Source of the DNA: Candidatus Harpocratesius repetitus
GTDB taxonomy: Archaea > Asgardarchaeota > Lokiarchaeia > Sigyniarchaeales > Promethearchaeaceae
Direction: 5' to 3'
Length of the DNA: 32,000 nt
Assembly (NCBI GenBank): GCA_021498095.1
Contig: JAIZWK010000001.1
Location: forward strand, 90,001 to 122,000
The notes beneath the pieces are model-generated. The model was given only the letters and a program-made list of their open reading frames with translations. It ran no database searches and was not told the origin of the DNA. Both the position numbers and the translations under genes were made by a program. Shown here one piece after another: positions 1 through 21,200 of this stretch (positions are counted from its first letter, which is position 1; each line of letters starts with the position of its first letter).

Positions 1-364
1 GATAAAAATTAGTGATTAATGTGTGACGAAGATTGTATAATCTGCCGTATGTCTTAATAACTTGAGAAACTGCATCTTTTTCAACTTCAGGATTATTTTT
101 CTTTTCTTTTTTATATGAGCCTCGTAAAATTTCATTTTTAGCACATAATCTTTTCATTCTGCAATAGGTTTCCGACAGTGTTTTATGAGCCCACTGAAAT
201 AATCTTGATTCCGTTCTATTCGATCCAAGTAATTTTTGGGTGTATTTCCATAGCAATTTTACATCTTTTACGTTCTGCAAAAAAAAGTTTGTCCGTTTCA
301 AGTACCATTTAATCTCTATGATAGAAGCTTTTTTTGACTGCGAAATAAGAACAGTAAACAGACC
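1..364 (-). CDS. Partial or possibly decayed tyrosine recombinase/integrase-like reading frame (runs off the left edge)
   Basis: Manual translation of the minus strand gives 121 stop-free codons from 364 to the edge, ending ...QVIKTYGRLYNLRHTLITNFY, resembling the box II [H/Y]xLRH[T/S] motif of tyrosine recombinases. Absent from the ORF track because no stop lies in the window. An in-frame TGA at 367-365 bounds it upstream and no TGxR box I motif is visible. Confidence 0.4.
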
Positions 365-467
365 TCATATAATAAAATTAATAATTCAACAAGACAATAA
401 TGTTTAAATTTGGTAATAAAAAACTATAATTCATCCATAAGGATAAAAAAACAATTAAGTGTTTAAA

Positions 468-1304
468 ATGAAAAATAAAAAGAGTGCTATTTTATTTAGT
501 ATAGTGTTTTTAATGTCTTTCTTTACACCAGTTTTGGCTATTATTGATGATGGTGGTGGTGGAGGCTCTACTCCACCTAATCTTTATGATTACGATGTTG
601 GTGTTATAATAACGTATTATGAGAAAAATCCAAATCCGTTTAAACCATCTATAGTTATGGCAGAATATTATCTAAAAATAAATTCTCTTTTATTTATAGA
701 ACCCGGAGATGAATACTTTTACTCATATACTACTAGCCGATATGGAACTATAAAAGCAGATTATTCAAATTTATTTGATTTCTTGACTATAAAAGAAAAT
801 TTCCAATTAGCTTTTGATTTAGTAAAAAAAAAAAAGGAAAAAGACTATTTTTCAAAAATTATGGAAAAAATTGACTTAAAAGACAGAGAAACTTATTATC
901 CTAATGAATTTAGTGCTGGACAAATTCAAAAAATTGCTTTTCTTCTGGCTATAGAAAAAGGCTCACAAATTATTCTTGCTGATGAACCAACAGGAAATTT
1001 AGATGCTAATTCTCGTGATAATTTTATGGAAATGATTAAAGATTTCAAAAAAAACATCAAAGATTCAATGATTATTATTGTTTCTCATGATCCGGCACTA
1101 ATGAAGATTGCTGATCGCCTTTTTCTTTTAGAAAATGGAAAATGTATCTCTTCTAATATAATTTCAGCTTCTATCCATGAGAACTCAAAATATCCATTCG
1201 AAATTACAAAATATAAAAAACCTTTTAATCAGAAAATTCAAAAAACTGTAAGTAAATTGAAATCACTAATTGAAGAATTAGAATTATTATCATCAGGAGA
1301 ATAG
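468..1304 (+). CDS. Chimeric ORF: signal-peptide-bearing N-terminus fused to the C-terminal half of a LolD/MacB-type ABC ATPase (no Walker A)
   Basis: N-terminus MKNKKSAILFSIVFLMSFFTPVLA (signal-like) then a GGGGGS linker; C-half has LTIKEN, degenerate signature FSAGQIQK, Walker B IILADEPTGNLD and H-loop IIVSHD. No GxxGxGK[ST] anywhere in the ORF. ATG at 468 preferred over GTG at 459. Confidence 0.7.
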   Translation: MKNKKSAILFSIVFLMSFFTPVLAIIDDGGGGGSTPPNLYDYDVGVIITYYEKNPNPFKPSIVMAEYYLKINSLLFIEPGDEYFYSYTTSRYGTIKADYSNLFDFLTIKENFQLAFDLVKKKKEKDYFSKIMEKIDLKDRETYYPNEFSAGQIQKIAFLLAIEKGSQIILADEPTGNLDANSRDNFMEMIKDFKKNIKDSMIIIVSHDPALMKIADRLFLLENGKCISSNIISASIHENSKYPFEITKYKKPFNQKIQKTVSKLKSLIEELELLSSGE

Positions 1305-1309
1305 TAACA

Positions 1310-2035
1310 TTGAAAAACGATTCGAAAAAACAAAAATATGGGAAAATTGTAGCTTTAGGTTTGATATTGCTAATCCCTTTAACAATCATGCAACAAAATC
1401 ACCTTTTTAAATCGGATTTAAGTTTAAACTCAACTAATAATATAATCGCTGCAGATATTTCCCAAAATTATTCATTTGCATATCCATTTTACTGCAAAAC
1501 CAATTTTACTTTATCAAATAGTTCAACGCTCCAATTATTGGGCACGATTCAGTATGACATTAGTGGTTTTTTTCACTTTGAGCCTGGAGATGAATTTATT
1601 ATCAATTCCACAGCTAAATATCAGCGAACACTGACTTTTTCTGGAGAAAAGCTCATTCAATGGGATAATTTTACGCTATATAATTCCACTTCTTATGATA
1701 GCAGTTATCGCATCTATCAACTTGATTTCATTGGTAATATTTTATTTCATCTGACTTCTCCTTTAGTGAATCTTAGTATAGAGTGGATATTGCAAATTTT
1801 TGACAATCAGCTTCCAGATTTTAGTACATCTATAATAGGAGTCGATTTTAATCAATATAAACTTGAAATAAAAACCACATTTAAACAAAATTGTGATCAA
1901 TACTTTACTTCATTTTCAGATGATAATGACACGTCATCACTTAGAAATCAATCTATGTACATTATTTATGCGACAATTGGAATATGCGGGCTCTTAGGCA
2001 CCAGTTTTTTTATTCTGAGAAAAAAGCTTGCTTAG
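1310..2035 (+). CDS. Membrane-anchored hypothetical protein (N-terminal signal/TM, C-terminal TM anchor)
   Basis: Hydrophobic IVALGLILLIPLTIM near the N-terminus; C-terminal IIYATIGICGLLGTSFFIL followed by RKK; several NxS/T sequons. TTG start 5 bp after the previous stop. Confidence 0.75.
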   Translation: MKNDSKKQKYGKIVALGLILLIPLTIMQQNHLFKSDLSLNSTNNIIAADISQNYSFAYPFYCKTNFTLSNSSTLQLLGTIQYDISGFFHFEPGDEFIINSTAKYQRTLTFSGEKLIQWDNFTLYNSTSYDSSYRIYQLDFIGNILFHLTSPLVNLSIEWILQIFDNQLPDFSTSIIGVDFNQYKLEIKTTFKQNCDQYFTSFSDDNDTSSLRNQSMYIIYATIGICGLLGTSFFILRKKLA

Positions 2036-2162
2036 TAAACAAAAAATAATAATCACATGAATTACAAAATAGATCGAAGTTTGAAATTAATAAAAAAAAT
2101 GTAATTAACACTAATTTCTGTTGAAAAATGTTGTAAACAATTCTTCTTTAATTTTTCCCATT

Positions 2163-3596
2163 TCAATTTTGAAACATTTTTTTTGCTTGCTTTTGAATTT
2201 CCTCTTGAGCATTTTTTTCGTCATGATAATAAGCAATAAGAATTCGATGATGTGTAGCTAAGTGTTGAATAAATGAATTATTCTTTTTTTGAAGTAATTC
2301 TATCGATTTTTTAACGCTTTTTTCATTTAATATCCAAATTGATTGTAAATCTTGATCATCTTCGATAGACTGGTTTATTGGAGGGGTAATTCTTATTGGT
2401 TTTCCAGGATCATGTCTTAAAAATGACCAATGATTTGTGATACCATTCGTTTTACTTAAATTTTCAAAAAGTTGATTTTCTTTTTCACATATTTCACCCT
2501 TTTTATCCTTTTCACCCCTTACTCTCTTTACTCCAATATTATTCTCAATACGAGTAACAGGATCATAGATATAACAATTTTTAATCGGAATTCGATTTTT
2601 TATGGTATTGTATAAATTTCTTAAATCGTCTTTTTCTGAATTATTAAGATTTTTATCAGCATGGCGTAAAAGAATCTGGATAGTTTTAAAAAATGAAGCT
2701 TCTGTCAAATTATAGAAATCTGTTTCAAACCAATCTTTATTATTTTTTTCAAAATCATTCTTTGAAGGAAGTTTAAAAGAGTTTGGAAGACTAAGATCTG
2801 CTTTTGAAAAATAATCTTCATATATCTTATGAAGAATCAAATTATAACATACTGAGGTTTTATGAATATAGACAATTTTATACATCTGATACCTCGAATA
2901 TAGGAAATCCTCAAGAGCATCTTGAGCTTTTTCAGAAAAACAGATTTTATTTTTATGTAATTTGACAAATTTGCATATCCTATTAATATCGATTTTTCCA
3001 TAAGGAACGCCTGTAAAATATGCATCTCTTAAAAGATAATCCATTCGATCAGCATCTGCTTCAGAATGCAAAAGTGGTAATAAATAAGTTAAATTTTTAA
3101 ATTCTTCATCTTTAATTGGAGCTTGGCCGGTTATATACAAGCCAATATCTTGAGGATTAAAATCATTTTGCTTTAAAATTTCTCCAATCGAACTTTTCTC
3201 TATAATGTATTTTCCAATATCTTCATGAGTAAAATTATCATATAAATTTTCAAATGTATGTGAAAAGGGTAAATGTCCACAATCATGAAGAAGTGCTGCA
3301 AGTCGCATGAATTGAATGATTTTTTCATATTTATTATTCGGCAATTCAAATTCTTCTTTTATTTCAAGCGAATATAGAAGCTTGTCCATAACATGCAAAG
3401 TTCCAAGACAATGTTGAAATCTATTATGAGTCGCACCAGGATAGACTAAGGATGTTAATCCTAATTGTGTAATATTTCGTAATCTTTGAAATATAGGTGT
3501 TGAAATAACATCAAGCTCTAATTGCGTTAATGGAATTTCTTTATGAATTGGATCCAATATATATTTCTCAGCATGTAACCCGGTTAATGTTCTCAT
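2163..3596 (-). CDS. HD-domain dNTP triphosphohydrolase-like protein (SAMHD1/YwfO/YdhJ family)
   Basis: DPIH, FQRLRNITQLGLTSLVYPGATHNRFQHCLG, AALLHDCGHLPFSHTFE, DADRMDYLLRDAYFTG, RYQMYKIVYIHK: the full conserved motif series of this family. Confidence 0.92.
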   Translation of the reverse strand: MRTLTGLHAEKYILDPIHKEIPLTQLELDVISTPIFQRLRNITQLGLTSLVYPGATHNRFQHCLGTLHVMDKLLYSLEIKEEFELPNNKYEKIIQFMRLAALLHDCGHLPFSHTFENLYDNFTHEDIGKYIIEKSSIGEILKQNDFNPQDIGLYITGQAPIKDEEFKNLTYLLPLLHSEADADRMDYLLRDAYFTGVPYGKIDINRICKFVKLHKNKICFSEKAQDALEDFLYSRYQMYKIVYIHKTSVCYNLILHKIYEDYFSKADLSLPNSFKLPSKNDFEKNNKDWFETDFYNLTEASFFKTIQILLRHADKNLNNSEKDDLRNLYNTIKNRIPIKNCYIYDPVTRIENNIGVKRVRGEKDKKGEICEKENQLFENLSKTNGITNHWSFLRHDPGKPIRITPPINQSIEDDQDLQSIWILNEKSVKKSIELLQKKNNSFIQHLATHHRILIAYYHDEKNAQEEIQKQAKKMFQN

Positions 3597-3708
3597 TTTA
3601 ATGATTGATTGTTTGCATCAATTTTTTGAATTGTTATTAACTTATATGTAAGAAAATGGGAATAATTGAAATTTACTCAATTTTATCAATATATACAATA
3701 TAAGATTA

Positions 3709-4230
3709 CTAAATATATCCAAACTCAGAAAGATTATTTAGAATTATTTTAAATTCCTCATCATTAATTTTACTTTTCAATTCTGGCTTAAATTCATTAA
3801 ATTTTTGCTCGATCTTTGATCTATCGTAATCAACTTGCTCAGAGATATATACAATTGTAGCCAACATTTCAAATAATTCCTCTGGAAGAATGCCATTATT
3901 TAGAACATCAATTTTCTCTTTAAATTCTTTAAAATGCTTAATAACGTTAATTTCTTCTTCATCCAATATATCTTGAGATTCACCTTCTTCTAATACTATT
4001 GAAAAATCATTCATGTAATATAACATATGAGCGATTTCTGAACTATAAGGTCCACGCAAATAAAAATTCCACTTATAGGCCAATGAAAGCTTTGGGTTTG
4101 TTCTCCCATGTGTAAGAAGGTACAATGTTTTTTGAACAATAATTCGATTTGAAAATTTTACAGGATATTTATAAAAATGTTCTTTATTTAAAGCATCAAG
4201 AATAATTCGATATAGTTTACGATCAAGCAT
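3709..4230 (-). CDS. YwgA/DUF4065 (Panacea/SocA-like) family protein
   Basis: RIIVQKTLYLL and YKWNFYLRGPYSSEI match the QKxxY and YGPYS motifs of YwgA-type proteins; C-terminal FEMLATIVY; directly upstream of the HD gene, as in the Bacillus ywfO/ywgA neighbourhood. Confidence 0.7.
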   Translation of the reverse strand: MLDRKLYRIILDALNKEHFYKYPVKFSNRIIVQKTLYLLTHGRTNPKLSLAYKWNFYLRGPYSSEIAHMLYYMNDFSIVLEEGESQDILDEEEINVIKHFKEFKEKIDVLNNGILPEELFEMLATIVYISEQVDYDRSKIEQKFNEFKPELKSKINDEEFKIILNNLSEFGYI

Positions 4231-4846
4231 ATATTTATTCCTATTCCTTTCTTCCTTATAATTCTATGAGATTGGCAGTTTAATACAATTTCATATAAAT
4301 TTCCAAGATCATTTGTTTTTTTAGTTTATTGGATTAAAAATGATGACTTATTCATAGTAATTATCTTGATTTTAAAAAATAGAAAAGATTTTCATATAAA
4401 GTCTAAATAATTCTTTCAATTTTCAATCCAAATATTAATCGCTTATCTCTATTTTAATTTAGGTTCATATCATACTGAAGAAAACCTCCCGGAATTAGAA
4501 AAAATAAGAGATTTTTTAATCAAACGAAATTTCTCAAATACATCTCTTGCTTCAGATTATAATAATTTCAAAATTAAACCTCCCAGTTTAATAATAGATT
4601 CCATTTAATCAGACCTTATGGACCAACAAGAGGTAAATATTTTTCAATATAATGATATATCTGAAGTTGCAGAATACTGTTTCATATATATTAAAAATAA
4701 TTCCCTAAATGATTAATTTTTCAAAAAAAAAGATAATTTAGAACCTAAATTACCCTAATATTGAGATAACTAAAGATATTATAGAATTAGAAGTCCTTTT
4801 TCTTGAAATCTTAAAGTTCAATGAAAGAAAATTATTAAATAGACCT

Positions 4847-6775
4847 TTGTTCAAAGTACTATTCGAAAATCAAAAGGTTTCTGCAATGCCCAGTAAAATT
4901 TCAAAAATTCTTTCGGGATATAAAACTTCTTTAGAACATGCGAAAAAATTATATGAAGATGAATATAATTTACGAATGGATAATGCATTGCAGTTTTATA
5001 ATGAATTTCTAAAAGACAAAATATACGATTTCAGTAACATTAACGATTCAAATTCTCCAAAATATCAAAGAATTGTTGATAATCTCAGAAAGATTGCGGA
5101 AAAAATTAAGTTTGTAGCCATTGACGGAACCTGTTTTAAAGAAAAACTAGATCCGTACCTTGTTTTCTTTTCTTGTGCCTATGCTGTCCGAGGGAATATT
5201 GATCTAAATGTAGACAAATACTCTGTAAAATATGAGAAGTGGAGCATGAAGGAAGATAAAAGTGTTGTTTCCTACTTACCCGTTCCTTACGCAGATCTCT
5301 CAAATTTCTTATCTGAAGATGAAATGGGGGTAAGCGACAACCATAAAATAGATTTTATTAATATTCATTTGGATTTAATGAAACTGGCCGAATTATACCT
5401 GGCTTATTCTTTAATAAAAACCGACCTGCGACCTAATATTATACTACTTGATCAATCAATCAGTTCCTCATTTAATGCTCAAGGAATAGGACGAAAATCC
5501 GGTAAGAACATAATAAAATTTCTCAACCATGATCTATTTGGAGTTACAATAAATGAAAACGATGTAAATATTGCCTATTCCCACCCATATAATAATGATT
5601 TAGACATTCCACCTCCAAAAAATTTTAATTTAGGGCATTATCTTATGAGAATCTTAACGATTTCACCGAAAGGATCAATATCATTTAAAGAATTATTGAG
5701 AAAAATACCAAATTGGGATAATTTAGATGAAACACAAAGAATAAGACAAATTAAAAACAGAATCACAAAATATGTTAATATAATTCCAAAAGATCCGCTT
5801 ATTATTATTGATAATACCCAGAATCAAATCAAAATTAATCCAAAATACTACAATTCTTGGCAACGCACGTCTCACCTTTTTGAATCAGTCTGTAGGTCTT
5901 TGTTTGAAGAAAAGGAATCGGAAGTGAATTCAGGAATGGTTTACACCACAATCGAAGACGGAAAGCTGCAAAAACACTGGTTTACACCGGATGATATTCG
6001 TTTCTTCATTGCTGTTGCCTATCGAAAATTAATTGAAGCGTGTTGGGAGCATTCAATCTTTTTAATTGGAATTGCCAAAGATTCCAGCACTGCATATTTC
6101 AGTAAAAACTATTTTGATGTCTTTCGAGATTACGGTTTTGGGAACGACTTTGAAAAATATAAATTCAATAATAGTTTAGACAAGCTTCCTTGGACGGATC
6201 GTTTATTACTTGAAGGCATTGCATACTGCAATCCAAAAATTAACAGCCCTTGGTCCACTTTGGAAATGGATTCAGCAATAATTACCCTTCGCAATTCATA
6301 CAATCATTTATTAGCAAAAGCTCCCATCATCCATGGATCCGGAGAAAATCACAATATCTACTACCCTGAAAAAATTTTTCTACGCTCTCTTGCACAGTTT
6401 TATCTTAACAGATCCAAATTGATACCTATTGCAGGACATGTAATATTTATCGATCGGTTACTGCTTCCAAAATACGACAAGCAGTTAAATTTAGTCTCAT
6501 TAGGTTCACCCAGCGGAATGGAAGTTGTTTTTTTTGAAAACAATACCAAAAGTAATCCTGTTCAAGAAATTATAATGTTTCTTCTTAATATTTTGACAAA
6601 AAATCTTTTTCCTGAAGTTATTGGATACCCAGATCCTTTACATAAAGCAGATTGGGGAGCTAAAACATTAGGTCAAAAAATATTACCCATTATTCGTTCA
6701 TCACAGTATCTTTTAAAACAAAACCCATTAACTAAAACTTTACGCAAATTACGCCAAGAAGGCGGAGGAAGATAA
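4847..6775 (+). CDS. nurA: NurA-domain 5'-3' nuclease, enlarged (642 aa)
   Basis: FVAIDGT (first catalytic Asp), IILLDQS (second Asp), IGIAKDS, C-terminal GYPDPLHKAD. Start may be TTG 4847 or ATG 4886. Confidence 0.85.
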   Translation: MFKVLFENQKVSAMPSKISKILSGYKTSLEHAKKLYEDEYNLRMDNALQFYNEFLKDKIYDFSNINDSNSPKYQRIVDNLRKIAEKIKFVAIDGTCFKEKLDPYLVFFSCAYAVRGNIDLNVDKYSVKYEKWSMKEDKSVVSYLPVPYADLSNFLSEDEMGVSDNHKIDFINIHLDLMKLAELYLAYSLIKTDLRPNIILLDQSISSSFNAQGIGRKSGKNIIKFLNHDLFGVTINENDVNIAYSHPYNNDLDIPPPKNFNLGHYLMRILTISPKGSISFKELLRKIPNWDNLDETQRIRQIKNRITKYVNIIPKDPLIIIDNTQNQIKINPKYYNSWQRTSHLFESVCRSLFEEKESEVNSGMVYTTIEDGKLQKHWFTPDDIRFFIAVAYRKLIEACWEHSIFLIGIAKDSSTAYFSKNYFDVFRDYGFGNDFEKYKFNNSLDKLPWTDRLLLEGIAYCNPKINSPWSTLEMDSAIITLRNSYNHLLAKAPIIHGSGENHNIYYPEKIFLRSLAQFYLNRSKLIPIAGHVIFIDRLLLPKYDKQLNLVSLGSPSGMEVVFFENNTKSNPVQEIIMFLLNILTKNLFPEVIGYPDPLHKADWGAKTLGQKILPIIRSSQYLLKQNPLTKTLRKLRQEGGGR

Positions 6776-6777
6776 CA

Positions 6778-8769
6778 ATGTTTAATCCATTTGAAAAATT
6801 GGCAAATAATGCTTATGGGCGTTTGATGCAAATCCAAGATTTACCGGATGGTACAATAATTTATGAAGTTTGGTTTGATTACTGCCAAGAACTCTACAAT
6901 CAAATTAATGTAGGTTCATTTCTAGCGATTAAAAATTTCACTTTAGGGAATAAACCGGACCAAATTCATTACAGCATTCTTAAAATCATTAAAAAAATGC
7001 CCACACATTATGCAATGTTGGAAAATCTTCATAAAGGATATCCGGCATTTTCTGAAGAAGCTGCGCGCAGCATTCGAGATTCATTTACCGACCAAATTTC
7101 CCAATCAGATGAAGATCTTTCAAAAATTGTAGTTACAGCGGTTTCAACTAATTATGAATTTATATATCATGATAAACTCCAATCAATTAAAGATTTTGAA
7201 GTGATCCTTGAAAGTAATATAGCAATCTATGGAGAAGAAGCAAAAATACTTAGTAAGGATGCAGTACAAAAAATAATTAATAGAAATTTCACTTTAGATG
7301 CCCCTGAAATTGTATCTATAGGAACAATGAAAGAAAATGAAGAAGTCCAAGTTCTAATAGATATCGAAAAAGCATTAAAAACTCATTTCGGAATTTTTGG
7401 ATTTACAGGAGTTGGAAAAAGCAATTTACTCAGTACATTTATCTCAAAAATTTTTGAGAAAAAGGAACATATTCATAAAATTTTATTTTTTGATCTTATG
7501 GATGAATATCTCGGTCTTCTTTTAGATCTGTTCTTTAATAAAAATCTTAACTGCTATTATGTATATATTGATCATAAAGATTTAAGCCGAGATGAACGAG
7601 ATTATTTCACAACTCTTGATTGGTCTGACAGTATCTGCAATCAAATTTATCATCAAATGGTGTTACCTCGCGATATTAAAATAAACGATCAATACGCAGA
7701 TGAAATTAAAAAATTAATTAAAGCAATGTATCTAAACAGAAAAGTTAAAGTCATTGGCACAGTGGAAACTGTTGATAAATGGTTTGAAAAGAAACTAGAA
7801 TCAGTTCCGACTAAAATACAAAAGAAATATCTCTTATTTTCTGATCTAAAAAAATTATTAAAAAATCAAGGAATCGACATGAATGCCAGCATAACTGAAG
7901 AAATTCGGAAAAAAATAATTCCAATTTTAGAAAATCCTCCATTTTACTCAAAAACTCACTCAACATCAAAGAAAAAACAAAAAGAAGCCAACCAAGCCCA
8001 TTCAGCTAAGCAGTCTACAATTGAAGGTGGATTAATATCTGAAGATAAGAAAACTAAAAAAGCGAATACATTTCATTTAGCGAAAGATTTTGAAAAAAAT
8101 AGCTGGATTCAGTACAGAGAATTACTAATTTCTTATATTAAAAAGGATTCAATCATCAATTATTCAAATTATGGGGATTTTGTAATTAGCATGGAACAAA
8201 TCATTAAAGATACGGATGATGAATCAAAATCTTCTCTTTATATCTTCAGCGCCAATCGCGATTCACAACTAAGGGAGTTTCTAAACGAAATCGGATCAAA
8301 AATCTACGATCACCGAAAAGAAGAAGGAAAAATCAGCCCTATTACTTCACTTATATTCGATGAAGCGGATACATTTATACCCCAGTCTGAGGGAAAAGAT
8401 GAAAGTATCTCACTGTCTAAACAGATGATCGAGCAGTATGCAAGACGAGGTCGTAAATTTGGATTGGGAATCGGATTGGCAACTCAACGGGTGACCTATC
8501 TTGATACTACAATACTAGGACAGCTTCATACCTATTTTGTCAGTAAACTTCCGAGAAAATCGGACAGAGATCGTATTAAAGAAGCTTTTTCTTTTTCTGA
8601 TGAAGAATTAAATGAAACATTCCGTTATGGAAAAGGTAATTGGCTGTTAGTCAGTCATGAAGGGATGGGAATAGAAGGTGTGCCTTTATCCATTAAAAGT
8701 GAAAATGCAAATGATCGTCTTATTCAATTTTTCTTGGATCTCAGAAAAAGAATGACAGAATCTGAATAA
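6778..8769 (+). CDS. herA: HerA-like ATPase/DNA translocase (DUF87 family)
   Basis: Walker A HFGIFGFTGVGKSN, Walker B LIFDEADTF, arginine finger RRGRKFG, ATQR motif; N-terminal beta-rich HAS-barrel-like region; starts 2 bp after the nurA stop. Confidence 0.92.
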   Translation: MFNPFEKLANNAYGRLMQIQDLPDGTIIYEVWFDYCQELYNQINVGSFLAIKNFTLGNKPDQIHYSILKIIKKMPTHYAMLENLHKGYPAFSEEAARSIRDSFTDQISQSDEDLSKIVVTAVSTNYEFIYHDKLQSIKDFEVILESNIAIYGEEAKILSKDAVQKIINRNFTLDAPEIVSIGTMKENEEVQVLIDIEKALKTHFGIFGFTGVGKSNLLSTFISKIFEKKEHIHKILFFDLMDEYLGLLLDLFFNKNLNCYYVYIDHKDLSRDERDYFTTLDWSDSICNQIYHQMVLPRDIKINDQYADEIKKLIKAMYLNRKVKVIGTVETVDKWFEKKLESVPTKIQKKYLLFSDLKKLLKNQGIDMNASITEEIRKKIIPILENPPFYSKTHSTSKKKQKEANQAHSAKQSTIEGGLISEDKKTKKANTFHLAKDFEKNSWIQYRELLISYIKKDSIINYSNYGDFVISMEQIIKDTDDESKSSLYIFSANRDSQLREFLNEIGSKIYDHRKEEGKISPITSLIFDEADTFIPQSEGKDESISLSKQMIEQYARRGRKFGLGIGLATQRVTYLDTTILGQLHTYFVSKLPRKSDRDRIKEAFSFSDEELNETFRYGKGNWLLVSHEGMGIEGVPLSIKSENANDRLIQFFLDLRKRMTESE

Positions 8770-8846
8770 TATTAAAAATATCATTTAATTTATCAGAAAT
8801 AAGGTTTTTTTCTATAATACAAAAGCTCATCAGAAAGAAGTTTAAC

Positions 8847-10022
8847 ATGACATCTATCGAAATCTTTGAGGATTCTTCTGAAAAGGAATCAATTTCAAAT
8901 GTTTTAGTACCTAATTCAGCAATGGACGATATTCGAATTATTGATATTTTTTCTGGAGTAGGAGGTCTTTCATATGGATTCCACTCACAAGGTTATAATA
9001 TTCTCACAGCAGTTGATTTTGACCCTCATGCACTTAAAACCTATTCCAGACACTTTCATACAAAATATGAGACTATATGTGAAGATTTAACTAAAAAATC
9101 AATTTTAAGTCTAGCTAATCAGCAAAAAATTCCTGTTAAATCAATTGATCTCCTAATCGGAGGACCTCCATGTCAAGGATTTTCATTTGCAAACCGCCAT
9201 GGGGAAAATTCAAAAATAGAAAAAAGAAATTTAATCCATAGTTTTAAGTCGAATCTGAAAAATTTAAAACCCACCTTTTTCCTCATGGAAAATGTTGCTG
9301 GAATTAAATTAGGCAGCAATCAAATATATTTAAAAAAATTTTTAGAAGAGATTAAAAATTTAGGTTACGAATTTCGAGAATTTGAAATTAACTGTCTGCA
9401 TTTCGGTATTCCGCAGATACGAAACAGGTATTTACTGCTTGGATCATTAAAATCTGAAGGACGAGATTTGGAAAAAATAGTCTTACCCAAAGGAGATAGA
9501 AAAATTACCTTAAAGAAAGCAATTTCTGATCTTCCTAAAGTTCAAAATGGAAATAAAACGGATATTCTTCCTTATCAAATACAAAATTACTCCGAACTTT
9601 CCAATTATCAGAAAATGATGAGAAAATATAATATCCAAACTCACGTATCGAATAACACAGCTACACGTAATCAACCCTATGTTATTGAACGGTTTACTCA
9701 AATTAAACCTGGTGGAAATTGGCGCAGTATTCGACATATGCTGCATAATTATCGTAATGTGGATAACTGCCACAGTTCAATTTACCGTCGTTTACAATGG
9801 AACCAACCTTCAATTACGATTACAAATTTTCGGAAGAATATGATTATTCATCCTTCAGAAAATCGACTTCTTACCGTTCGTGAGGCTGCCCGGATTCAAT
9901 CCTTTCCGGATCATTTCGTTTTTCTCGGTCCGAAAAGTGTGCAGGAACAGCATGTAGCCAATGCCGTGCCGCCCCTAGTGTCGGAATTTTTTGCAAAAGA
10001 AATTAAAAAACATTGGTACTAA
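8847..10022 (+). CDS. dcm: DNA (cytosine-5) methyltransferase
   Basis: Motif I IDIFSGVGG, motif IV GGPPCQGFS, motif VI MENV, motif VIII PQIRNR, motif IX LTVREAARIQSFPD, motif X NAVPP. Alternative start ATG 8922. Confidence 0.97.
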   Translation: MTSIEIFEDSSEKESISNVLVPNSAMDDIRIIDIFSGVGGLSYGFHSQGYNILTAVDFDPHALKTYSRHFHTKYETICEDLTKKSILSLANQQKIPVKSIDLLIGGPPCQGFSFANRHGENSKIEKRNLIHSFKSNLKNLKPTFFLMENVAGIKLGSNQIYLKKFLEEIKNLGYEFREFEINCLHFGIPQIRNRYLLLGSLKSEGRDLEKIVLPKGDRKITLKKAISDLPKVQNGNKTDILPYQIQNYSELSNYQKMMRKYNIQTHVSNNTATRNQPYVIERFTQIKPGGNWRSIRHMLHNYRNVDNCHSSIYRRLQWNQPSITITNFRKNMIIHPSENRLLTVREAARIQSFPDHFVFLGPKSVQEQHVANAVPPLVSEFFAKEIKKHWY

Positions 10023-10035
10023 CCATCTTTGACCT

Positions 10036-10722
10036 TTATTTCCTAACCTTATTACTTGAACATTCTTCCTTATATTCACTGCATTCATCCTTTAATATGC
10101 AAGAAAAACATTTTGGATTTTTCTGAACACAGACCATTGAGCCAAAATCGATTAAAGCATAATTATAGATATCCCAATTATCATCTGGAAGTAATTCATC
10201 AGCAAATTTCCAGAAAAGAGGATCATTACGCGGGCGTTCCTTTGAAGAAACAAAATGAAAAAAGCGGGAAATAACTCGAATAACATTTACATCGACCAAA
10301 GAAATCCTTTCACCTCTGGCAAAACAACGAAATGCAGAGAGAGTATAGTTACCAACACCAGGCCAACCCAAAATTTCCATTGGTTTAATTGTCTCAAAAG
10401 AAAATTTAGAAGCCTTCATTTTTTTTTGAATTTCAAGTAGATAATCAATCCGTTTTATTAAGCCAAGATTTTTTAAGAGTAATTCGAAATCTTCAGATGT
10501 CGCAGACTTAAATGCATCTTCCGTTGGAAATTTTGAAATAAATTTGGGATAAACAGCAGCGACTTGGGAAGATTTTGTTCGCTGTAAAAGAAATTCTGCT
10601 ATAAAAACACGATATGAATTTCGATCGCTTCTCCAGGAAAATTGACGGAGATTTAAAGATGCCCACTCCATGATTTTTCGAGTGAAAAAGTTCCGAATAT
10701 ATGGATCTTCCCACGAATGCAT
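10036..10722 (-). CDS. mig: HhH-GPD [4Fe-4S] mismatch glycosylase, Mig (T:G thymine-DNA glycosylase) type
   Basis: AEFLLQRT, HhH WPGVGNYT, catalytic VDVNVIRV, Fe-S motif C-x6-C-x2-C-x5-C (CVQKNPKCFSCILKDEC). Lacks the MutY C-terminal domain; has QRTKS and NYA where MutY has QQTQV and NQA. Converges on dcm with a 13 bp gap. Confidence 0.8.
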   Translation of the reverse strand: MHSWEDPYIRNFFTRKIMEWASLNLRQFSWRSDRNSYRVFIAEFLLQRTKSSQVAAVYPKFISKFPTEDAFKSATSEDFELLLKNLGLIKRIDYLLEIQKKMKASKFSFETIKPMEILGWPGVGNYTLSAFRCFARGERISLVDVNVIRVISRFFHFVSSKERPRNDPLFWKFADELLPDDNWDIYNYALIDFGSMVCVQKNPKCFSCILKDECSEYKEECSSNKVRK

Positions 10723-10983
10723 ACGTTACTATTGATTATTAGGAATAAATAGAATTCTAACTGCTTTCTATTTAATAGACTTCTATGAGAATTATCAATT
10801 GAAGAAAAATATTGAGTTCTACTAAACGAATGATGGTTTTTTAGATGGTGTAAAAGACTATTTAGTTGAATTAATTTAGCACTTACTCTCTTTTTCGCCA
10901 TTTACCTTAATATTTTTTAAATATCTACTTATTTTGACAGATATTTTATAGTGTGAATTACAAAATATTATGCAAAAAAATCA

Positions 10984-12456
10984 TTAAGAATTATTAGCAG
11001 TAAGGACATGGACTAATTTATAAATTTCATCTGTGTGATAATTAGCATCTCTTAGAATTTTATGAATTCCACCTTCCTGACGCAGACTCTGTAAAAATTG
11101 TTCAACATTGTCAAAATTTAACCCGGTTACACTGAGGTGAAAATCTTCAATTATTTTTTCCTCAGGAACACCTAAAAGAAGATAAATTATGCAAATTATT
11201 AAGCCGGTTCTATCCGTTCCTGCTACACAATGAAGCAAAATACCTTTATCCCCTGATGTTTGGATTAGGCGTAACACTTTAATCAATTGTTCAGTATTTT
11301 GTCGAACACTGGTTATGTAGTTGTTTTGAAGCATAATTGGTATATGATGATATTCAATTGGATATTGCTCATTTGCAATAATAATTTTATCATAAGGACT
11401 GTTTAAAATTTCTTGGTCATTTCGCAAATCGATAATCATTTGAATATTATGTTCTTTGAGGAACTTTATTACTTCTAACGGTTTATACTTGGTTAAAGTA
11501 CTGCTACGAAATAGTTTTTCACATTTAATTTTTGGTTCCTGTAAGCTTTCCCTACCAAAGTCCCGGAACTTATAAAATGGAGGATATTTTGCTTTAATTT
11601 GTTCTTGGAACTCTTTAATAGATTTTAGATTTAAGGAAGTAGGTATAGAAGTATTTTTTAGTAAATTAAGAAAAGCGCAGAACATATAACCAATTTTTTC
11701 ACGCATTTCCAAAGGATCGATAGTACTGCTTACTTGTTGTAACACTCGAACGTATTCCTGCTCTTTAGGGCTATGAACTAATACTTTGTTGGTTAAATTT
11801 CTCATTGCATATAAATGTGTTTTCCCACCAGAATCTAAATAAAACAACGTGGCAATTTTATAAAAACAGAGATTATGTTGTAGATAGGCTCGATAAAGAT
11901 CGCCTCGATTAAAGAACGGAAAAAAACTTTCGTAATAGTTTAGAAATTTGCGCGCTTCGAGGTCGAACTTGGCTTTACGGTCAAAAGGTGGTTCAGCTGC
12001 AAGATGTTTTTTTAAATATGGTAATAACTTACCATCTTTATCCAAGCATACTACATTTTTTGGATCTTTTATCCGAGTTTCTAGAAAAAATAGGGAGAAT
12101 TGATCATTCAAATTTATCTTATCAATAGAATTAATCAAATGAAGTTCTACTTTAGTAAAGTTGATTGGAAGATACAAAATCCATAATGATTCTTTAAGAT
12201 TATGGGTTCCAGTTTCATAAGGAAGATAATTAACAAATGAAAGGGGACCAAAGATCTCTTCAAAGTTATTTACAGGATTTTTTGAAAATTCAAACCATAA
12301 TGAAGAGCCATTTCCAAATAAGTATAGATCAATATCTGAATAAAGATCTAATTCATCACGAGCCGCAGATCCCAATACAGCCATTTCACGAACATATTCT
12401 TGTAATTGAAAATATTTCTGAATTTTTGAAATTGTATCCTTAATAATATACGACAT
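10984..12456 (-). CDS. Fusion: Pol-beta-type nucleotidyltransferase (ANT(6)/Lnu-like) plus tyrosine/lipid phosphatase (PtpB/IphP, Y_phosphatase3 type)
   Basis: N-terminal LGSAARDELDLYSDIDL (GS...DxD); C-terminal FRDFG, LFRSS, IIDLRN and P-loop HCVAGTDRTG (CX5R). Confidence 0.85.
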   Translation of the reverse strand: MSYIIKDTISKIQKYFQLQEYVREMAVLGSAARDELDLYSDIDLYLFGNGSSLWFEFSKNPVNNFEEIFGPLSFVNYLPYETGTHNLKESLWILYLPINFTKVELHLINSIDKINLNDQFSLFFLETRIKDPKNVVCLDKDGKLLPYLKKHLAAEPPFDRKAKFDLEARKFLNYYESFFPFFNRGDLYRAYLQHNLCFYKIATLFYLDSGGKTHLYAMRNLTNKVLVHSPKEQEYVRVLQQVSSTIDPLEMREKIGYMFCAFLNLLKNTSIPTSLNLKSIKEFQEQIKAKYPPFYKFRDFGRESLQEPKIKCEKLFRSSTLTKYKPLEVIKFLKEHNIQMIIDLRNDQEILNSPYDKIIIANEQYPIEYHHIPIMLQNNYITSVRQNTEQLIKVLRLIQTSGDKGILLHCVAGTDRTGLIICIIYLLLGVPEEKIIEDFHLSVTGLNFDNVEQFLQSLRQEGGIHKILRDANYHTDEIYKLVHVLTANNS

Positions 12457-12487
12457 AATTATTTTCTCGAATTTTATTAATAATTTT

Positions 12488-13147
12488 TCAAGTAGAATAG
12501 TTTTTTATTAACTTATGTTCAAACTGTATGATTTCTTTCCATATTTCTTCAAAAAAACGGTTTTTAAGATTAGATAAGAGCTCATCAGGAGTAAGTATCC
12601 TTGAATTATCAAAATTTAAAATCAAGTGAGGAATAGAATCAATCATCCAAAATTGATCTATTTTATCTTGTTTAAGCTCGTAGTCATTACGAATAATCAG
12701 TTTTTCAACAGGGATAGAAAAGGGATATGGAATTTTATCAAAATGTGAAGTGTTATGAATTTTTTTCAGACACTGCTCAGGAGGAGAAGTAATATAGATA
12801 ATCACATAGGGGTTTTTAGAAAATTTAAGTGCATATCGGACTGCATGTTTATGGATTCCTACCCCGCTAAATTCTAAGACGCAATGTCCATCATTCTGAA
12901 TATATCTGAGAAATTGTGAATATGCATCATATTCTCCTGCTACTGTTCCATCAGCAACTGCTATCCGAATAGTGTCAATAGAATAAATCGGATAGCGAGA
13001 AAATTGTGAAATCCACTTTGCAATTAAAGATTTTCCTGCACCAATATTACCAATAAGAAAAATTTTGAAATTATTTTTTATCCTTATCTGATGTTTCATT
13101 TCATCCATTTTATGACGAGTTCTCCTTGCTTTTTTTCTTTTTATCAA
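12488..13147 (-). CDS. Small P-loop kinase (NMP/shikimate-kinase-like fold)
   Basis: LIGNIGAGKS Walker A near the N-terminus, SIDTIR, VLEFSG, IIYITSPPEQCLKKI. Start TTG 13147 or ATG 13108. Confidence 0.78.
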   Translation of the reverse strand: MIKRKKARRTRHKMDEMKHQIRIKNNFKIFLIGNIGAGKSLIAKWISQFSRYPIYSIDTIRIAVADGTVAGEYDAYSQFLRYIQNDGHCVLEFSGVGIHKHAVRYALKFSKNPYVIIYITSPPEQCLKKIHNTSHFDKIPYPFSIPVEKLIIRNDYELKQDKIDQFWMIDSIPHLILNFDNSRILTPDELLSNLKNRFFEEIWKEIIQFEHKLIKNYST

Positions 13148-18213: not shown

Positions 18214-21200
18214 ATGAATAAAAAAAGGGAAAATTCAACTTCAGAACTATATAAATCAGCAATAATCAGCTCATTAAAACAAGGAGATAAAAAACTTGCA
18301 GATATTGAGCAAGATGTACGATCTACATTAATTGGATTCAGTCGAAATACACTAAGAAAATATAGAGATATATTGATCAATGAAGATAGAATTGAACAAA
18401 TAGGAACCCAAGCTCACCCTACTTATCATTTAAAATGTAATAACTCGAATTTTCTTATTGAATCAGAAAGTCTTTTTCCCTCTAATGAAACTTTACTAAA
18501 TCAACTCTTTTTACTTAATGATTTTCTTCAAAATCCAATTTATCGAAATTATTTATCAGAATTACGCAATCCTCACACTGGTTCAATATTGAAATCGATA
18601 ATTCTGAGATATACACATATTTTTAATACAATTAAAAAGCAGAATCTTTTAGATTTCCTTCAATTTCTATTGTTCATTCTTTTTATGCATGAAAAACATA
18701 TAAATATTTCAGAATATGAGAAAGAAGAACAAGAATTATCCTTTTTAAAGAATATTCCGAAAGAAAAAATTTTTTTTTTTGAAGAAATAATGTCAAAACA
18801 AAAATTATTATATATTTTTTTTAGTCATTGTAATAGACTTACAACTACTAATCTTTCTGTCAATAAATTTTACTTATTAACTAAGGGAGAAAATTATGCG
18901 TATTTTGATAAAAGTTTAGAAAATTTAGTAACTTCGATACTTCGATCTCTTATTCTTGTGGAAGATCCAATTTCACTAAATTTATTTGAAGATATATCCT
19001 TAATAGAACTGCAGAAATGGATGTTAAAAAGTTTAAAGGCTCAAAATAACGCAGAATATTTTAATAACCAGATAGAGCGAATTGCATCATATTCTCCTTT
19101 CCCATTTTTCATTTTCTTAAAAGAAAAACTATTTCAAAAGTTTCAATTTATTCTTTATAACGAAATTCCTTTATATCGAGATTGGATATTTGTTAATCTT
19201 GAAATTTTATCTTCAAATATAAAAAAAATCATTTTTCGTGAACCAAACCCTCATTTTTATATAAATTTCATTGATCAAGCAATTTCTCGAATCATTCATA
19301 ATGCAACTTCAGTCAAAAAGTGCATGAATTGTTTACATTCAGCAAAAAATGATATGGAAAAAGAAATTTTTAAAAGTCTGTTAAATCTTAATTCAAAAGA
19401 AGAAATAAAAGAGATCTTTAAAAATAAACTAAGCGGTCGTATTGATTTTAGGTTAAAAAATGCAAAAAAGGTGCTGTTTTATCTTTATTTGAAAACAAAA
19501 ATCAGATTATTAGAGCCTAATCGAGAAAAGAACCCTTTAAACCAAAATAATGCAGATGAAGACGAACTTCTGCTACAATGGAATGTTTTCTTCCAAAAGG
19601 TCAAAATGGTTGCGCAGAAGCAGGAAAAACTTAGCTTATTTGAAGGAACTTCATTAAGACATCTTATCATGCAGAGTATCCGTATTTTTGAAAAATTATT
19701 GGAAAAAATTCAAATAATTCACCCCATATCACCCAATTCCTTAAAAAGGAACAATCAATCTGATTACAGACAATTCTTGCTTTCATGTCATAAAGGCCAA
19801 ATTAGATCTGGCAATAACGATGAAACATACCTTATAAAACTCTTTTTACTTCTTCGTGGAACAGCATTTGGAATTGAGGGATTTAGAAATGAAATCAATA
19901 ATACAAAAAATACAACACTTCTTTTACTCTCCTTTGAAGCACTATACTTATCTGATAATCTTGATGATTTTAAACTTCTTAAGAATTTGATGAAAAAATT
20001 TTTCATGTCAAATGAGAAAGAGATACCTATTCGAAGGAAAATGATGTTGTTAACAGGAATAATTCATTTTGCGATCGTTCCATTAAAAGGAAAAAATACT
20101 GTTGATCAAAAAAGAGCCAATCTTTTCATTCAAGCATTTGATTTTTTCTGTCAGTACTTAGAAAAACTCAAATCTACCTCTGGAACCAATATGTCTTTCA
20201 ATTTTAAGTGGTTTTTCAACCTACTAGGGATCTATTATTATTTTCAAAATGAAAAAAGATCAGCTTTAGTTGCTGATTTACTAGGATTGTGTTTTTCATT
20301 TGAAAACCGAGCTCTTTTTCCTGAAACCCTCCTTTTCCAATATAATTCCTCATTTCATTGTATTTCATATGGTGAAACTCTTATAGAATTTCCTCCGTAT
20401 TTCATGATTCCCCATTCATCGATGGCAAAAGTACTACAATTAATGTTGATCGAAAATGTAAGCATCTCCCTAAATTCAATAATGAAAGTCCTCAGAGATT
20501 CTAACTTTTCTGAAAAACTAGGATTTGTTAAATTTTTTTGTAATAATTCGATGCAAGCAGAAGATATGAAGAAGAATGAACAAGATTTGAAGAGAATGAA
20601 CCAGTTATTAGATGAAAATTTAAAGTTAAGAAAATTCATTCTATTTCTATATCAATCAATCTATTTATTACATACTATTTTTATTGATGTTCCATTTAAC
20701 CAGATTTTTACCTTTGAAACAAATGTTTCAGAACCACAACACATTCAAATTCAAAAACTACTCCAGACTGTAGATAATTTTAGTAGGTATCATTCTGGAT
20801 TTAATACTCAATATCCTGCTTGGATTATTGCTATGCTCGCTTTAGTGAATAAGGATTTCGAATTATATCAACATTGGAGTCGAAAAATTATCCAAGCATA
20901 TCCATATTGCATTCCATTTTACAGAATAAACCTTCAATATGCTTTTAAGATACAAAATGCTGCAATGCAGGAAGAAACAATCTCCAAAATCTGGCAGGTA
21001 ATTGCGTCGAATTCTTTTGATATCTATCCAACCTATAATCTTGGTAAATACTGCAATCACTGGCACCTCTATCAATTCCCAGACATTTTAGATCTTCTTC
21101 TTAAGTGCCATCCTAAACACAGAAGGGATGAATATTTGCTTATTCTCGATTATTTTCTGATGCGAATACCGTTAACTAAATCTCAAAAAATAGATATTTT

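What the first reader, a model, noticed from the sequence alone, without database searches (positions are those of the whole stretch)
2163..10722. Candidate undescribed defence system: NurA-HerA plus m5C methyltransferase plus Mig glycosylase, with divergent HD/YwgA pair
Seen: nurA and herA are 2 bp apart, dcm follows 77 bp later, a T:G glycosylase converges on dcm, and there is no mre11/rad50 or classical REase in the unit. Known: housekeeping archaeal nurA-herA usually sits with mre11-rad50; HerA paralogues power defence systems with Sir2 or DUF4297 partners; m5C MTases travel with Vsr or Mig. Inference: an R-M-like system where Dcm marks self and a HerA-NurA translocase-nuclease replaces the REase, with the dNTPase as a backup arm. 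I do not recognise this combination as a named system.
Basis: partly seen in the sequence, partly recalled or inferred. Interest (0 to 1): 0.86.

Follow-up and report, generated by a model that had tools for sequence, protein, structure and literature searches.

The report
NurA-HerA nuclease operon with cytosine methylase
An Asgard archaeon carries a mobile cassette in which a DNA-chewing motor (a NurA-type nuclease plus a HerA ATPase) is coupled to a cytosine methylase and a mismatch-repair glycosylase. Comparison with about 80 related loci suggests an undescribed restriction-modification-like defence whose DNA-marking enzyme has been swapped during evolution.

Summary
Window 4886-10722 encodes a 629-aa NurA-fold nuclease ("NurAL"), a HerA ATPase 2 bp downstream, an m5C methyltransferase 77 bp further on, and a convergent Mig-type T:G glycosylase.

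NurAL has no Pfam or PADLOC match. Its model aligns to S. solfataricus NurA at Z 20.

The pair is not the housekeeping one. The genome has other NurA and HerA genes and an unlinked Mre11-Rad50 pair. NurAL is absent from 13 same-family genomes.

In 82 related loci from many phyla, NurAL-HerA is near-invariant:
- 50 loci carry a DpdA-like transglycosylase plus DUF6884, the 7-deazaguanine marking module.
- 8 loci carry Dcm instead.
- None carries both.

On a rooted tree the Dcm-linked loci form two separate clades inside a DpdA-linked radiation. Within the window's clade, Dcm co-diverges with NurAL and HerA.

Best reading (about 0.6): a restriction-modification-like system in which NurAL-HerA degrades unmarked DNA and Mig repairs m5C deamination. 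The HD/YwgA pair is a separate neighbour; the HD gene is a 72-codon remnant in the closest relative.

TdpABC is the nearest characterised precedent. This scan has already met the DpdA-linked version on other DNA. No function has been tested experimentally.

The parts
4886..6775 (+). NurAL: a 629-aa NurA-fold (RNase H-like) nuclease with about 300 aa of insertions, including a possible winged-helix insert at roughly residues 222-342 of the 642-aa ORF. The ORF opens at TTG 4847; the likely start is ATG 4886.
   Evidence: No Pfam, NCBIfam or PADLOC hit. AF2 model pLDDT 82. Foldseek top 10 are all NurA. VIA-align against 2ygk_A gives Z 20.0 with 308/319 aligned; against TdpB 8wfd_G, Z 12.7. Invariant D93, E182, D202 and H599/D602 fall in the order and secondary-structure positions of PfNurA D51, E105, D126 and H411; this mapping is inferred, not superposed. 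The insert model shows only weak winged-helix resemblances.
6778..8769 (+). HerA-family hexameric ATPase/translocase, 663 aa. It starts 2 bp after NurAL.
   Evidence: Pfam DUF87 5e-14. The best PADLOC model is HerA 'Type III coevolved' at 1.6e-53. It scores far below the NCBIfam equivalog cut-offs for repair HerA. Walker A GFTGVGKS and Walker B LIFDE are present. A HerA gene follows NurAL in 75 of 78 related loci.
8847..10022 (+). m5C DNA methyltransferase (Dcm), 391 aa, on the same strand 77 bp after herA. It is the proposed self-marking enzyme.
   Evidence: PF00145 1e-60 and PADLOC MTase_II 2e-95. Motifs FSGVG, PCQ, ENV and QxRxR are present. It is the only Dcm detectable in the genome. Orthologues sit in the same position in L011, L099 and L101, at 76, 53 and 43% identity.
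10036..10722 (-). Mig-type HhH-GPD T:G mismatch thymine glycosylase, 228 aa, convergent on dcm with a 13-bp gap. It is an accessory gene for repair of m5C deamination.
   Evidence: Best solved relative is 1kea (Mig.MthI), 6.5e-32 over its full length. PADLOC 'Type II nicking endonuclease' PDLC03398, 4e-33. The Fe-S cysteines, the HhH GVG and VDVN are present. A gene of this family lies in 4 of 7 loci of the window's clade.
3709..4230 (-). YwgA-like protein resembling the DarG C-terminal domain, 173 aa. It is a divergent neighbour and is not judged part of the system.
   Evidence: PADLOC DarG C-terminal region 9.5e-10 and no Pfam hit. It is found next to NurAL only in the window and in L011.
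2163..3596 (-). HD-domain phosphohydrolase, possibly a dNTPase, 477 aa. It is a neighbour and is not judged part of the system.
   Evidence: Pfam HD + HD_assoc_2. The PADLOC dGTPase hit is only 1.6e-4. It is reduced to about 72 codons in L011, where the cassette is intact.

Best explanation
Window 4886-10022 is a three-gene operon: NurAL, HerA and Dcm. Together with a convergent Mig glycosylase it forms a horizontally mobile, restriction-modification-like defence cassette.

Shown here:
- The four proteins have the folds and motifs of a NurA nuclease, a HerA ATPase, an m5C methyltransferase and a Mig thymine glycosylase.
- The NurAL-HerA pair belongs to a rare family scattered across phyla. In that family the pair is coupled either to a DpdA/DUF6884 7-deazaguanine module or to a Dcm, never to both.

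Inferred:
- Dcm methylates a short motif across the host chromosome.
- A HerA hexamer with a NurAL dimer loads on incoming DNA, probably at ends or nicks, and degrades it processively.
- The mark on self DNA blocks loading, translocation or cleavage. It may be read by the NurAL-specific insertions.
- Mig removes the T from T:G mismatches produced by m5C deamination, as Vsr and Mig do beside other m5C methylases.

The HD/YwgA pair is an unrelated neighbour in the same defence-rich region.
For: 1. Fold and motifs.
2. The pair is extra. The genome also has NurA(388 aa)-HerA(528 aa) at 2.55 Mb, a solo HerA, a solo NurA, and an unlinked Mre11+Rad50 pair at 4.09 Mb.
3. Distribution is patchy. No match was found in 0/2 same-genus and 0/13 same-family genomes. 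The family has only 380 representatives among 1.84 billion proteins, yet it occurs in Methanobacteriota, Thermoplasmatota, Nitrososphaerota, Cyanobacteriota, Chloroflexota, Latescibacterota and others.
4. Of 82 loci, 50 carry TGT/DUF6884, 8 carry Dcm, 0 carry both, and 24 carry neither. Many of the 24 are short contigs. The TGT partner matches PADLOC DpdA at up to 2e-97, and DUF6884 matches DpdC weakly.
5. On the tree rooted with distant Asgard pairs, the basal lineages are DpdA-linked. The window's clade (7 rows, support 100) nests in a 16-row clade (96) with DpdA-linked archaeal loci. The Nitrososphaerota Dcm clade lies in a different 47-row clade (97). This implies at least two independent swaps.
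6. NurAL, HerA and Dcm co-diverge: 82/79/76%, 62/54/53% and 54/46/43% identity, in the same order and strand with short gaps.
7. Nucleotide similarity to the closest relative starts inside HD and ends about 57 bp past the Mig gene, while the flanks differ.
8. Precedent: TdpB of the phosphorothioate-gated TdpAB complex has the same fold (Z 12.7; PMC12914056).
Against: - There is no experimental evidence for defence, methylation or nuclease activity.
- Some family members lack any adjacent modification gene. An Armatimonadota clade sits beside mutS and ileS. L102 has HD-CE/ORC-like genes after HerA, and L012 has only the glycosylase.
- A distant stand-alone NurAL-HerA pair (25-28% identity) is inherited family-wide in several Asgard families, in housekeeping surroundings. 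The machine is therefore not intrinsically a defence device.
- The Dcm-linked loci represent only 2-3 independent events, so the Fisher p of 3e-4 overstates the case.
- How a NurA/HerA machine would read m5C is unknown. The inserted domain gave no significant structural match.
Confidence: 0.6

Rival explanations
1. Two unrelated modules happen to lie side by side. NurAL-HerA would be a paralogous DNA end-resection or repair machine. Dcm + Mig would be a solitary methylase with its deamination-repair partner, perhaps the remnant of a type II R-M system that lost its endonuclease.
For: - Dcm + Mig is a known self-sufficient pairing; the best match is Mig.MthI.
- Stand-alone NurAL-HerA pairs exist in housekeeping contexts.
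- In L012 the glycosylase sits near a Bsp6I-type REase rather than next to a Dcm of this operon.
- The HhH-GPD genes of L007 and L012 are only 34-39% identical to the window's.
Against: - Dcm co-diverges with NurAL and HerA in the same operon position across four loci whose flanks differ.
- A Dcm was recruited independently beside the pair in Nitrososphaerota.
- Dcm and DpdA/DUF6884 are mutually exclusive across the 82 loci.
- The pair is absent from same-genus and same-family genomes.
Confidence: 0.17
2. The cassette is a defence system, but the modification is not the self/non-self signal. NurAL-HerA would act as a HerA/FtsK-type 'capture' nuclease triggered by something else, such as free DNA ends, replication intermediates or ORC/Cdc6-like sensors. 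Dcm or DpdA would have another role, such as regulation, shielding from other restriction systems, or addiction of the cassette.
For: - ORC-CDC6-like proteins fused or adjacent to effectors (SIR2_2, HD-CE, PRTase-CE) recur just downstream of HerA in L008, L102 and L007.
- This resembles the published HerA/FtsK 'capture' systems (PMC12839542).
- Some loci have no modification gene at all.
Against: Two chemically different DNA base-modifying modules replace each other beside the same nuclease-motor pair. This is most simply explained if the shared property, a mark on DNA, is what matters. The window has no ORC-like sensor gene in the unit.
Confidence: 0.15
3. A six-gene system, with the HD dNTPase and YwgA acting as a nucleotide-depletion backup arm of the NurA-HerA-Dcm system.
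For: The genes are adjacent and divergently oriented. The YwgA-like gene is kept next to NurAL in the closest relative. There is a weak PADLOC dGTPase hit at 1.6e-4.
Against: The HD gene is reduced to about 72 codons in L011, where NurAL, HerA, Dcm and Mig are intact. Neither gene is linked to the pair in any of about 80 other loci, apart from one distant HD gene several genes away in L076.
Confidence: 0.04

Closest known systems
TdpABC, the phosphorothioate-based defence of thermophiles (PDB 8wfd, TdpAB with AMPPNP and DNA)
   Same: A DNA-modification gene is coupled to a HerA-like ATPase plus a NurA-fold nuclease that acts as the restriction module. TdpB aligns to the NurAL model at Z 12.7 with 299 residues aligned. 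That tdpC alone makes the PT mark is stated in PMC12914056. That the PT mark inhibits TdpAB on self DNA is from my own recollection of the Tdp work, which is not in the library.
   Different: The mark here is m5C, and 7-deazaguanine in most relatives, not phosphorothioate. No TdpC-like gene is present. NurAL is about 270 aa longer than TdpB and closer in fold to SsoNurA (Z 20). TdpA was not among the sequence matches of this HerA.
Dpd system (dpdA-dpdK, 7-deazaguanine restriction-modification)
   Same: Most relatives of this cassette carry DpdA-like (PADLOC up to 2e-97) and DpdC-like/DUF6884 genes. The logic of a marking module plus a restriction module is the same (PMC12839542).
   Different: The restriction half is NurAL-HerA instead of DpdD-K. 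In the window, the DpdA/DUF6884 module is replaced by Dcm.
Canonical archaeal HerA-NurA end-resection complex (S. solfataricus, P. furiosus, T. kodakarensis)
   Same: The NurA fold and the order of the catalytic residues match. A HerA partner lies immediately downstream.
   Different: There is no Pfam NurA hit. NurAL carries about 300 aa of insertions. There is no mre11-rad50 linkage. The pair is absent from sister genomes, and the genome has other NurA and HerA genes.
Type II m5C R-M systems with a mismatch-repair partner (M.MthTI with Mig.MthI on pFV1; Dcm with Vsr)
   Same: An m5C methylase lies next to a T:G-specific repair enzyme. The glycosylase is a full-length homologue of Mig.MthI.
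   Different: No classical restriction endonuclease is present. The neighbouring nuclease is a NurA/HerA machine.
SIR2-HerA and DUF4297-HerA anti-phage systems
   Same: A HerA-family ATPase is used in defence. Solved HerA chains, among them HerAs of anti-phage complexes, match this HerA at 1e-10 to 1e-14.
   Different: The partner here is a NurA nuclease, not SIR2 or DUF4297, and a DNA-marking gene is present. Those systems have no modification component.

Membership tests
Canonical HerA-NurA repair pair | NurA (RNase H-like) fold with the D-E-D-H catalytic set | tested here: met
   VIA-align Z 20.0 against 2ygk_A. Invariant D93, E182, D202 and H599, compared with PfNurA D51, E105, D126 and H411. 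The residue mapping is inferred.
Canonical HerA-NurA repair pair | Sequence membership in Pfam NurA (PF09376) and the NCBIfam repair-HerA equivalogs | tested here: not met
   NurAL has no Pfam hit at E<=0.01. HerA scores 66 bits against a 970-bit cut-off for NF040819.
Canonical HerA-NurA repair pair | Operon or neighbourhood with mre11-rad50, and lineage-wide vertical inheritance | tested here: not met
   Mre11+Rad50 lie at 4.09 Mb, unlinked. NurAL is absent from 0/2 same-genus and 0/13 same-family genomes.
Type II restriction-modification system | DNA methyltransferase with intact catalytic motifs | tested here: met
   PF00145 1e-60. Motifs I, IV, VI and VIII are present.
Type II restriction-modification system | Cognate classical restriction endonuclease adjacent to the methyltransferase | tested here: not met
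   No REase family appears in any ORF of 2163-10722 by Pfam or PADLOC. The only 'REase_II' hit is the Mig-type nicking/glycosylase model.
Dpd (7-deazaguanine) system | DpdA (TGT-like) and DpdC-like genes in the cluster | tested here: not met
   tblastn with all 69 TGT/DUF6884 proteins of the relatives found nothing in the window. The feature is met in 50 related loci.
TdpABC | HerA-like ATPase plus NurA-fold nuclease pair | tested here: met
   Fold level only: TdpB 8wfd_G at Z 12.7. HerA domain.
TdpABC | TdpC phosphorothioation gene | tested here: inconclusive
   No ORF of the unit has a PT-synthesis-like domain by Pfam or PADLOC. No TdpC model or sequence was available to search with.
SIR2-HerA / DUF4297-HerA | SIR2 or DUF4297 effector adjacent to HerA | tested here: not met
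   Neither domain is in the unit. A SIR2_2+ORC-like gene follows HerA only in the distant locus L008.
Mig/MutY-type HhH-GPD T:G glycosylase | Full-length similarity to Mig.MthI, catalytic Asp, a 4Fe-4S loop, and no MutY C-terminal domain | tested here: met
   1kea at 6.5e-32, residues 9-221 aligned to 9-220 of 221. VDVN and C-x6-C-x2-C-x5-C are present. Substrate specificity itself cannot be tested here.
dGTPase / dNTP-depletion defence | Significant match to the defence dGTPase family | tested here: inconclusive
   PADLOC dGTPase 1.6e-4 at 19 bits. TIGR01353 scores 24 bits against a 152-bit cut-off.
DarTG toxin-antitoxin | DarG macrodomain plus a DarT toxin | tested here: not met
   The YwgA-like protein matches only the C-terminal part of DarG (positions 174-327 of 329). 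There is no macrodomain and no DarT-like ORF.

The most novel reading that the evidence does not exclude
NurAL-HerA is the restriction engine of an undescribed, domain-spanning family of restriction-modification-like systems whose self-mark is interchangeable. The mark is 7-deazaguanine (DpdA + DUF6884) in most lineages and was replaced by m5C at least twice. The Asgard cassette here is the m5C form. On this reading, a processive NurA/HerA nuclease-translocase can be gated by chemically unrelated base modifications, possibly through its lineage-specific insertions.
Probability: 0.5. Interest if true: 0.8.

Novelty: new variant of a known kind. Interest (0 to 1): 0.62.

Why it matters
If correct, this adds a defence family in which a processive end-resection-type machine replaces the site-specific endonuclease of restriction-modification. 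The m5C/7-deazaguanine swap is a natural experiment showing that the marking module is exchangeable.

It would extend the TdpAB principle, a modification-gated HerA/NurA machine, from phosphorothioate to base modifications and to mesophilic archaea and bacteria.

It would also give a biochemical handle on how a hexameric translocase senses DNA marks. More practically, it flags that 'NurA/HerA' annotations in Asgard and other genomes cannot be read as DNA-repair genes by default.

Tried and rejected
- Sequence searches of NurAL and of its family profile against PDB chains gave nothing meaningful. Only structure comparison identified the fold.
- The insert at residues 222-342 was folded alone (pLDDT 85). 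It had no Foldseek match at E<=0.001. The weak rows were mostly winged-helix domains, so 'wHTH sensor' remains a guess.
- I tried to show that L012 has a Dcm just beyond its Bsp6I-type REase. The contig-end fragment is too short and shows no methylase motif, so this is inconclusive.
- Literature: no paper in the library combines NurA, HerA and DpdA, or NurA/HerA with a methyltransferase-based defence. The PT/Dnd and BREX comparative papers describe HerA/FtsK 'capture' systems but never mention NurA. The primary Tdp paper is not in the library.
- Sequencing runs: no RNA holder is listed. The only holders are two DNA runs of the probable source sample. No reads were laid.
- Rfam and repeat scans of window 1-13000 found no RNA family and no flanking repeats that would mark an insertion.
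- The PADLOC 'mad3' and 'mad8' hits of the upstream ABC fragment and of HerA were judged generic ATPase similarity, not a MADS system.
- Complex prediction was not used. NurAL plus HerA exceed its size limit, and a pass would largely reflect the solved HerA-NurA complexes.

Full report
**1. What is in the sequence**

- HD, 2163-3596 (-)
- YwgA-like, 3709-4230 (-)
- a 642-aa ORF, 4847-6775 (+)
- HerA, 6778-8769 (+), after a 2-bp gap
- Dcm, 8847-10022 (+), after a 77-bp gap
- HhH-GPD, 10036-10722 (-), convergent with a 13-bp gap

HerA, Dcm, HD and HhH-GPD are recognised by Pfam. The putative NurA is not recognised by Pfam, NCBIfam, PADLOC or a sequence search of the PDB.

I folded it from an alignment of 27 homologues, giving pLDDT 82 and pTM 0.85. 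The ten best Foldseek matches are all NurA structures. VIA-align gives Z 20.0 against S. solfataricus NurA, with 308 of its 319 residues aligned across model residues 19-630. It is therefore a NurA fold carrying about 300 residues of insertions.

The family-invariant D93, E182, D202 and H599/D602 fall in the order and secondary-structure elements of the PfNurA catalytic residues D51, E105, D126 and H411 (PMC3300031). This mapping is inferred, not superposed. Homologues begin at the ATG at 4886, so the gene is probably 629 aa.

Other motif checks:
- HerA has Walker A and B. Dcm has motifs I, IV (PCQ), VI and VIII.
- The glycosylase is a full-length homologue of Mig.MthI (1kea, 6.5e-32), with the catalytic Asp and the Fe-S cysteines.

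**2. This is not the housekeeping pair**

The genome is 4.36 Mb in one contig. The closest public homologue of NurAL comes from 'Ca. Harpocratesius sp.', an Asgard archaeon.

The genome holds six DUF87/HerA-like genes and two Pfam-recognisable NurA genes:
- a NurA(388 aa)-HerA(528 aa) pair at 2.55 Mb
- a solo HerA at 3.94 Mb
- a solo NurA at 1.40 Mb
- a Mre11(545 aa)+Rad50(899 aa) pair at 4.09 Mb, linked to none of them

With the family profile, no match was found in 2 same-genus and 13 same-family genomes.

**3. The family and its partners**

The family is rare: 380 representatives at E<=1e-3 among 1.84 billion cluster representatives. It is nonetheless scattered across many archaeal and bacterial phyla.

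I gathered 82 loci, called ORFs and clustered them. In the first 78 loci, NurAL was in 77 and a HerA immediately downstream in 75.

The only other widespread cluster, present in 50 loci, is a TGT-like protein and/or DUF6884, either separate or fused. Pfam calls these TGT and DUF6884. PADLOC calls them DpdA (up to 2e-97) and, weakly, DpdC. DUF6884 is a YaaA/DpdC-like DNA-binding fold (PMC11701544). DpdA and DpdC make dPreQ0 and dADG in DNA in the Dpd system (PMC12839542).

Dcm occurs in 8 loci and never together with TGT/DUF6884. 24 loci have neither, and many of those are short contigs. The Fisher p is 3e-4, which is not corrected for relatedness.

**4. Phylogeny**

A distant set of NurAL-HerA pairs (25-28% identity) is near-universal in some other Asgard families, for example 5/5 and 6/6. 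These pairs lie among housekeeping genes such as DNA ligase and MFS transporters, and those genomes also have canonical NurA genes.

Rooting the tree on that set gives the following:
- The mobile family is one clade (support 100), and its basal lineages are DpdA-linked.
- The window's clade (7 rows, 100) nests within a 16-row clade (96) with DpdA-linked loci of Methanobacteriota, Bathyarchaeia, Thermoplasmatota and Aenigmatarchaeota.
- The Dcm-linked Nitrososphaerota clade sits in a different 47-row clade (97).

The DNA-marking module was therefore exchanged for an m5C methylase at least twice. The Dcms of L007 are unrelated (26-31% identity) to the window's, which suggests a third event.

**5. 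The trio is a unit**

In the window, L011, L099 and L101 the order NurAL-HerA-Dcm, the strand and the short gaps are all kept. The three proteins diverge in parallel, at 82/79/76%, 62/54/53% and 54/46/43% identity.

Nucleotide similarity between the window and L011 runs from 3348 to 10779 with one break. It ends about 57 bp beyond the Mig gene, and the flanks are unrelated or rearranged.

Mig-type genes accompany the clade in 4 of 7 loci. Outside the closest pair they are only 34-39% identical and vary in position. I read this as an accessory that follows m5C methylases in general. Dcm and Mig are each single-copy in this genome.

**6. HD and YwgA**

These two genes are linked to NurAL only in the window and L011. 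In L011 the HD gene is cut down to about 72 codons, while YwgA and the four cassette genes are intact. Nothing supports a 'backup arm'. Another note of this scan treats the pair as a separate candidate module.

**7. Mechanism**

Shown: the folds, the motifs, the linkage, the exchange of modules and the patchy distribution.

Inferred: Dcm marks self DNA. The HerA hexamer with a NurAL dimer translocates on and degrades unmarked DNA. The mark blocks the machine. Mig repairs deamination damage.

The closest characterised precedent is TdpABC, in which a single PT-synthesis gene accompanies a HerA-like/NurA-like TdpAB complex (PDB 8wfd, fold match Z 12.7; PMC12914056).

How m5C would be read is open. 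An insert at residues 222-342 looks winged-helix-like, but without a significant match.

**8. Caveats and rivals**

- Some members lack a modification gene. These include the Armatimonadota clade beside mutS and ileS, and L102, which has HD-CE/ORC-like genes.
- ORC/Cdc6-like effector genes recur downstream of HerA, as in the published HerA/FtsK 'capture' systems.
- The distant stand-alone Asgard pairs show that the machine can have non-defence roles.

I therefore give 0.6 to the R-M-like reading, 0.17 to chance neighbours, 0.15 to a modification-independent defence and 0.04 to the six-gene version.

**9. Novelty**

PADLOC models (2023) do not cover NurAL. I found no paper describing NurA/HerA with DpdA or Dcm.

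Two earlier follow-ups of this scan, on a cyanobacterium and on Ferroglobus, reached the DpdA-linked reading independently. I re-derived that linkage here. The Dcm variant and the rooted evidence for a module swap are what this window adds.

I class it as a new variant of a known kind: a modification-gated HerA/NurA restriction module.

Noticed in passing
G000:C1:2552505-2561932 (locus L086:7505-16932): The genome's other NurA(388 aa)-HerA(528 aa) pair sits in one same-strand run with a 1388-aa STAND/AAA NTPase, a 339-aa protein with no family hit, and a 349-aa TGT-like gene. It is not next to mre11-rad50. This may be a second nuclease-motor system linked to a transglycosylase.
   Followed up: partly
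L104-L119 (e.g. L115:6579-10335, L116:6813-10575, L117:8254-12016): A distant NurAL-like (~640 aa) + HerA pair, 25-28% identical to the window's, is near-universal in several other Asgard families (5/5, 6/6 and others). It lies among housekeeping genes such as DNA ligase, MFS transporters and F420 hydrogenase. Those genomes also keep canonical NurA genes. Its function is unknown.
   Followed up: partly
window 8847-10022: The Dcm's best solved-structure matches are eukaryotic DNMT1 catalytic domains (2e-39), ahead of bacterial M.HaeIII (7e-27) and M.HhaI (2e-13).
   Followed up: no
L007:11958-14732, L008:11680-14190, L102:4132-5440: Genes combining ORC/Cdc6-like or AAA domains with effector domains (PRTase-CE, SIR2_2, HD-CE) recur directly downstream of HerA in some family members. 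This suggests an optional third component.
   Followed up: partly
L021-L023, L026, L030, L033, L037, L060 (Armatimonadota and unclassified-bacterium loci): One bacterial clade of the family has no DpdA or Dcm nearby. In the loci examined it keeps a conserved neighbourhood with mutS, ileS and an HpcH-type aldolase, which may indicate a domesticated or repair-associated version.
   Followed up: partly
window 459-1304 and 1310-2035: A 281-aa ABC-type ATPase ORF matches only the C-terminal half of ABC_tran (profile positions 59-136), so the N-terminal half with Walker A appears to be missing. It has a PADLOC 'mad3' hit at 3e-17 and is followed by a 241-aa protein with no family hit. It may be a degraded defence ATPase.
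   Followed up: no
window 18214-21429 and L011:1-1448: The 1071-aa protein with no Pfam hit has a homologue in the Harpocratesius sp. relative (64-70% nt identity). There it lies on the opposite side of the NurAL cassette, which indicates a local rearrangement.
   Followed up: no
L045:13615-16076 (also L054, L058): In Nitrososphaerota the Dcm-NurAL-HerA trio is followed by a complete PstI/BsuBI-type REase with an Eco57I-like N6 methylase. This stacks two restriction-type modules.
   Followed up: partly
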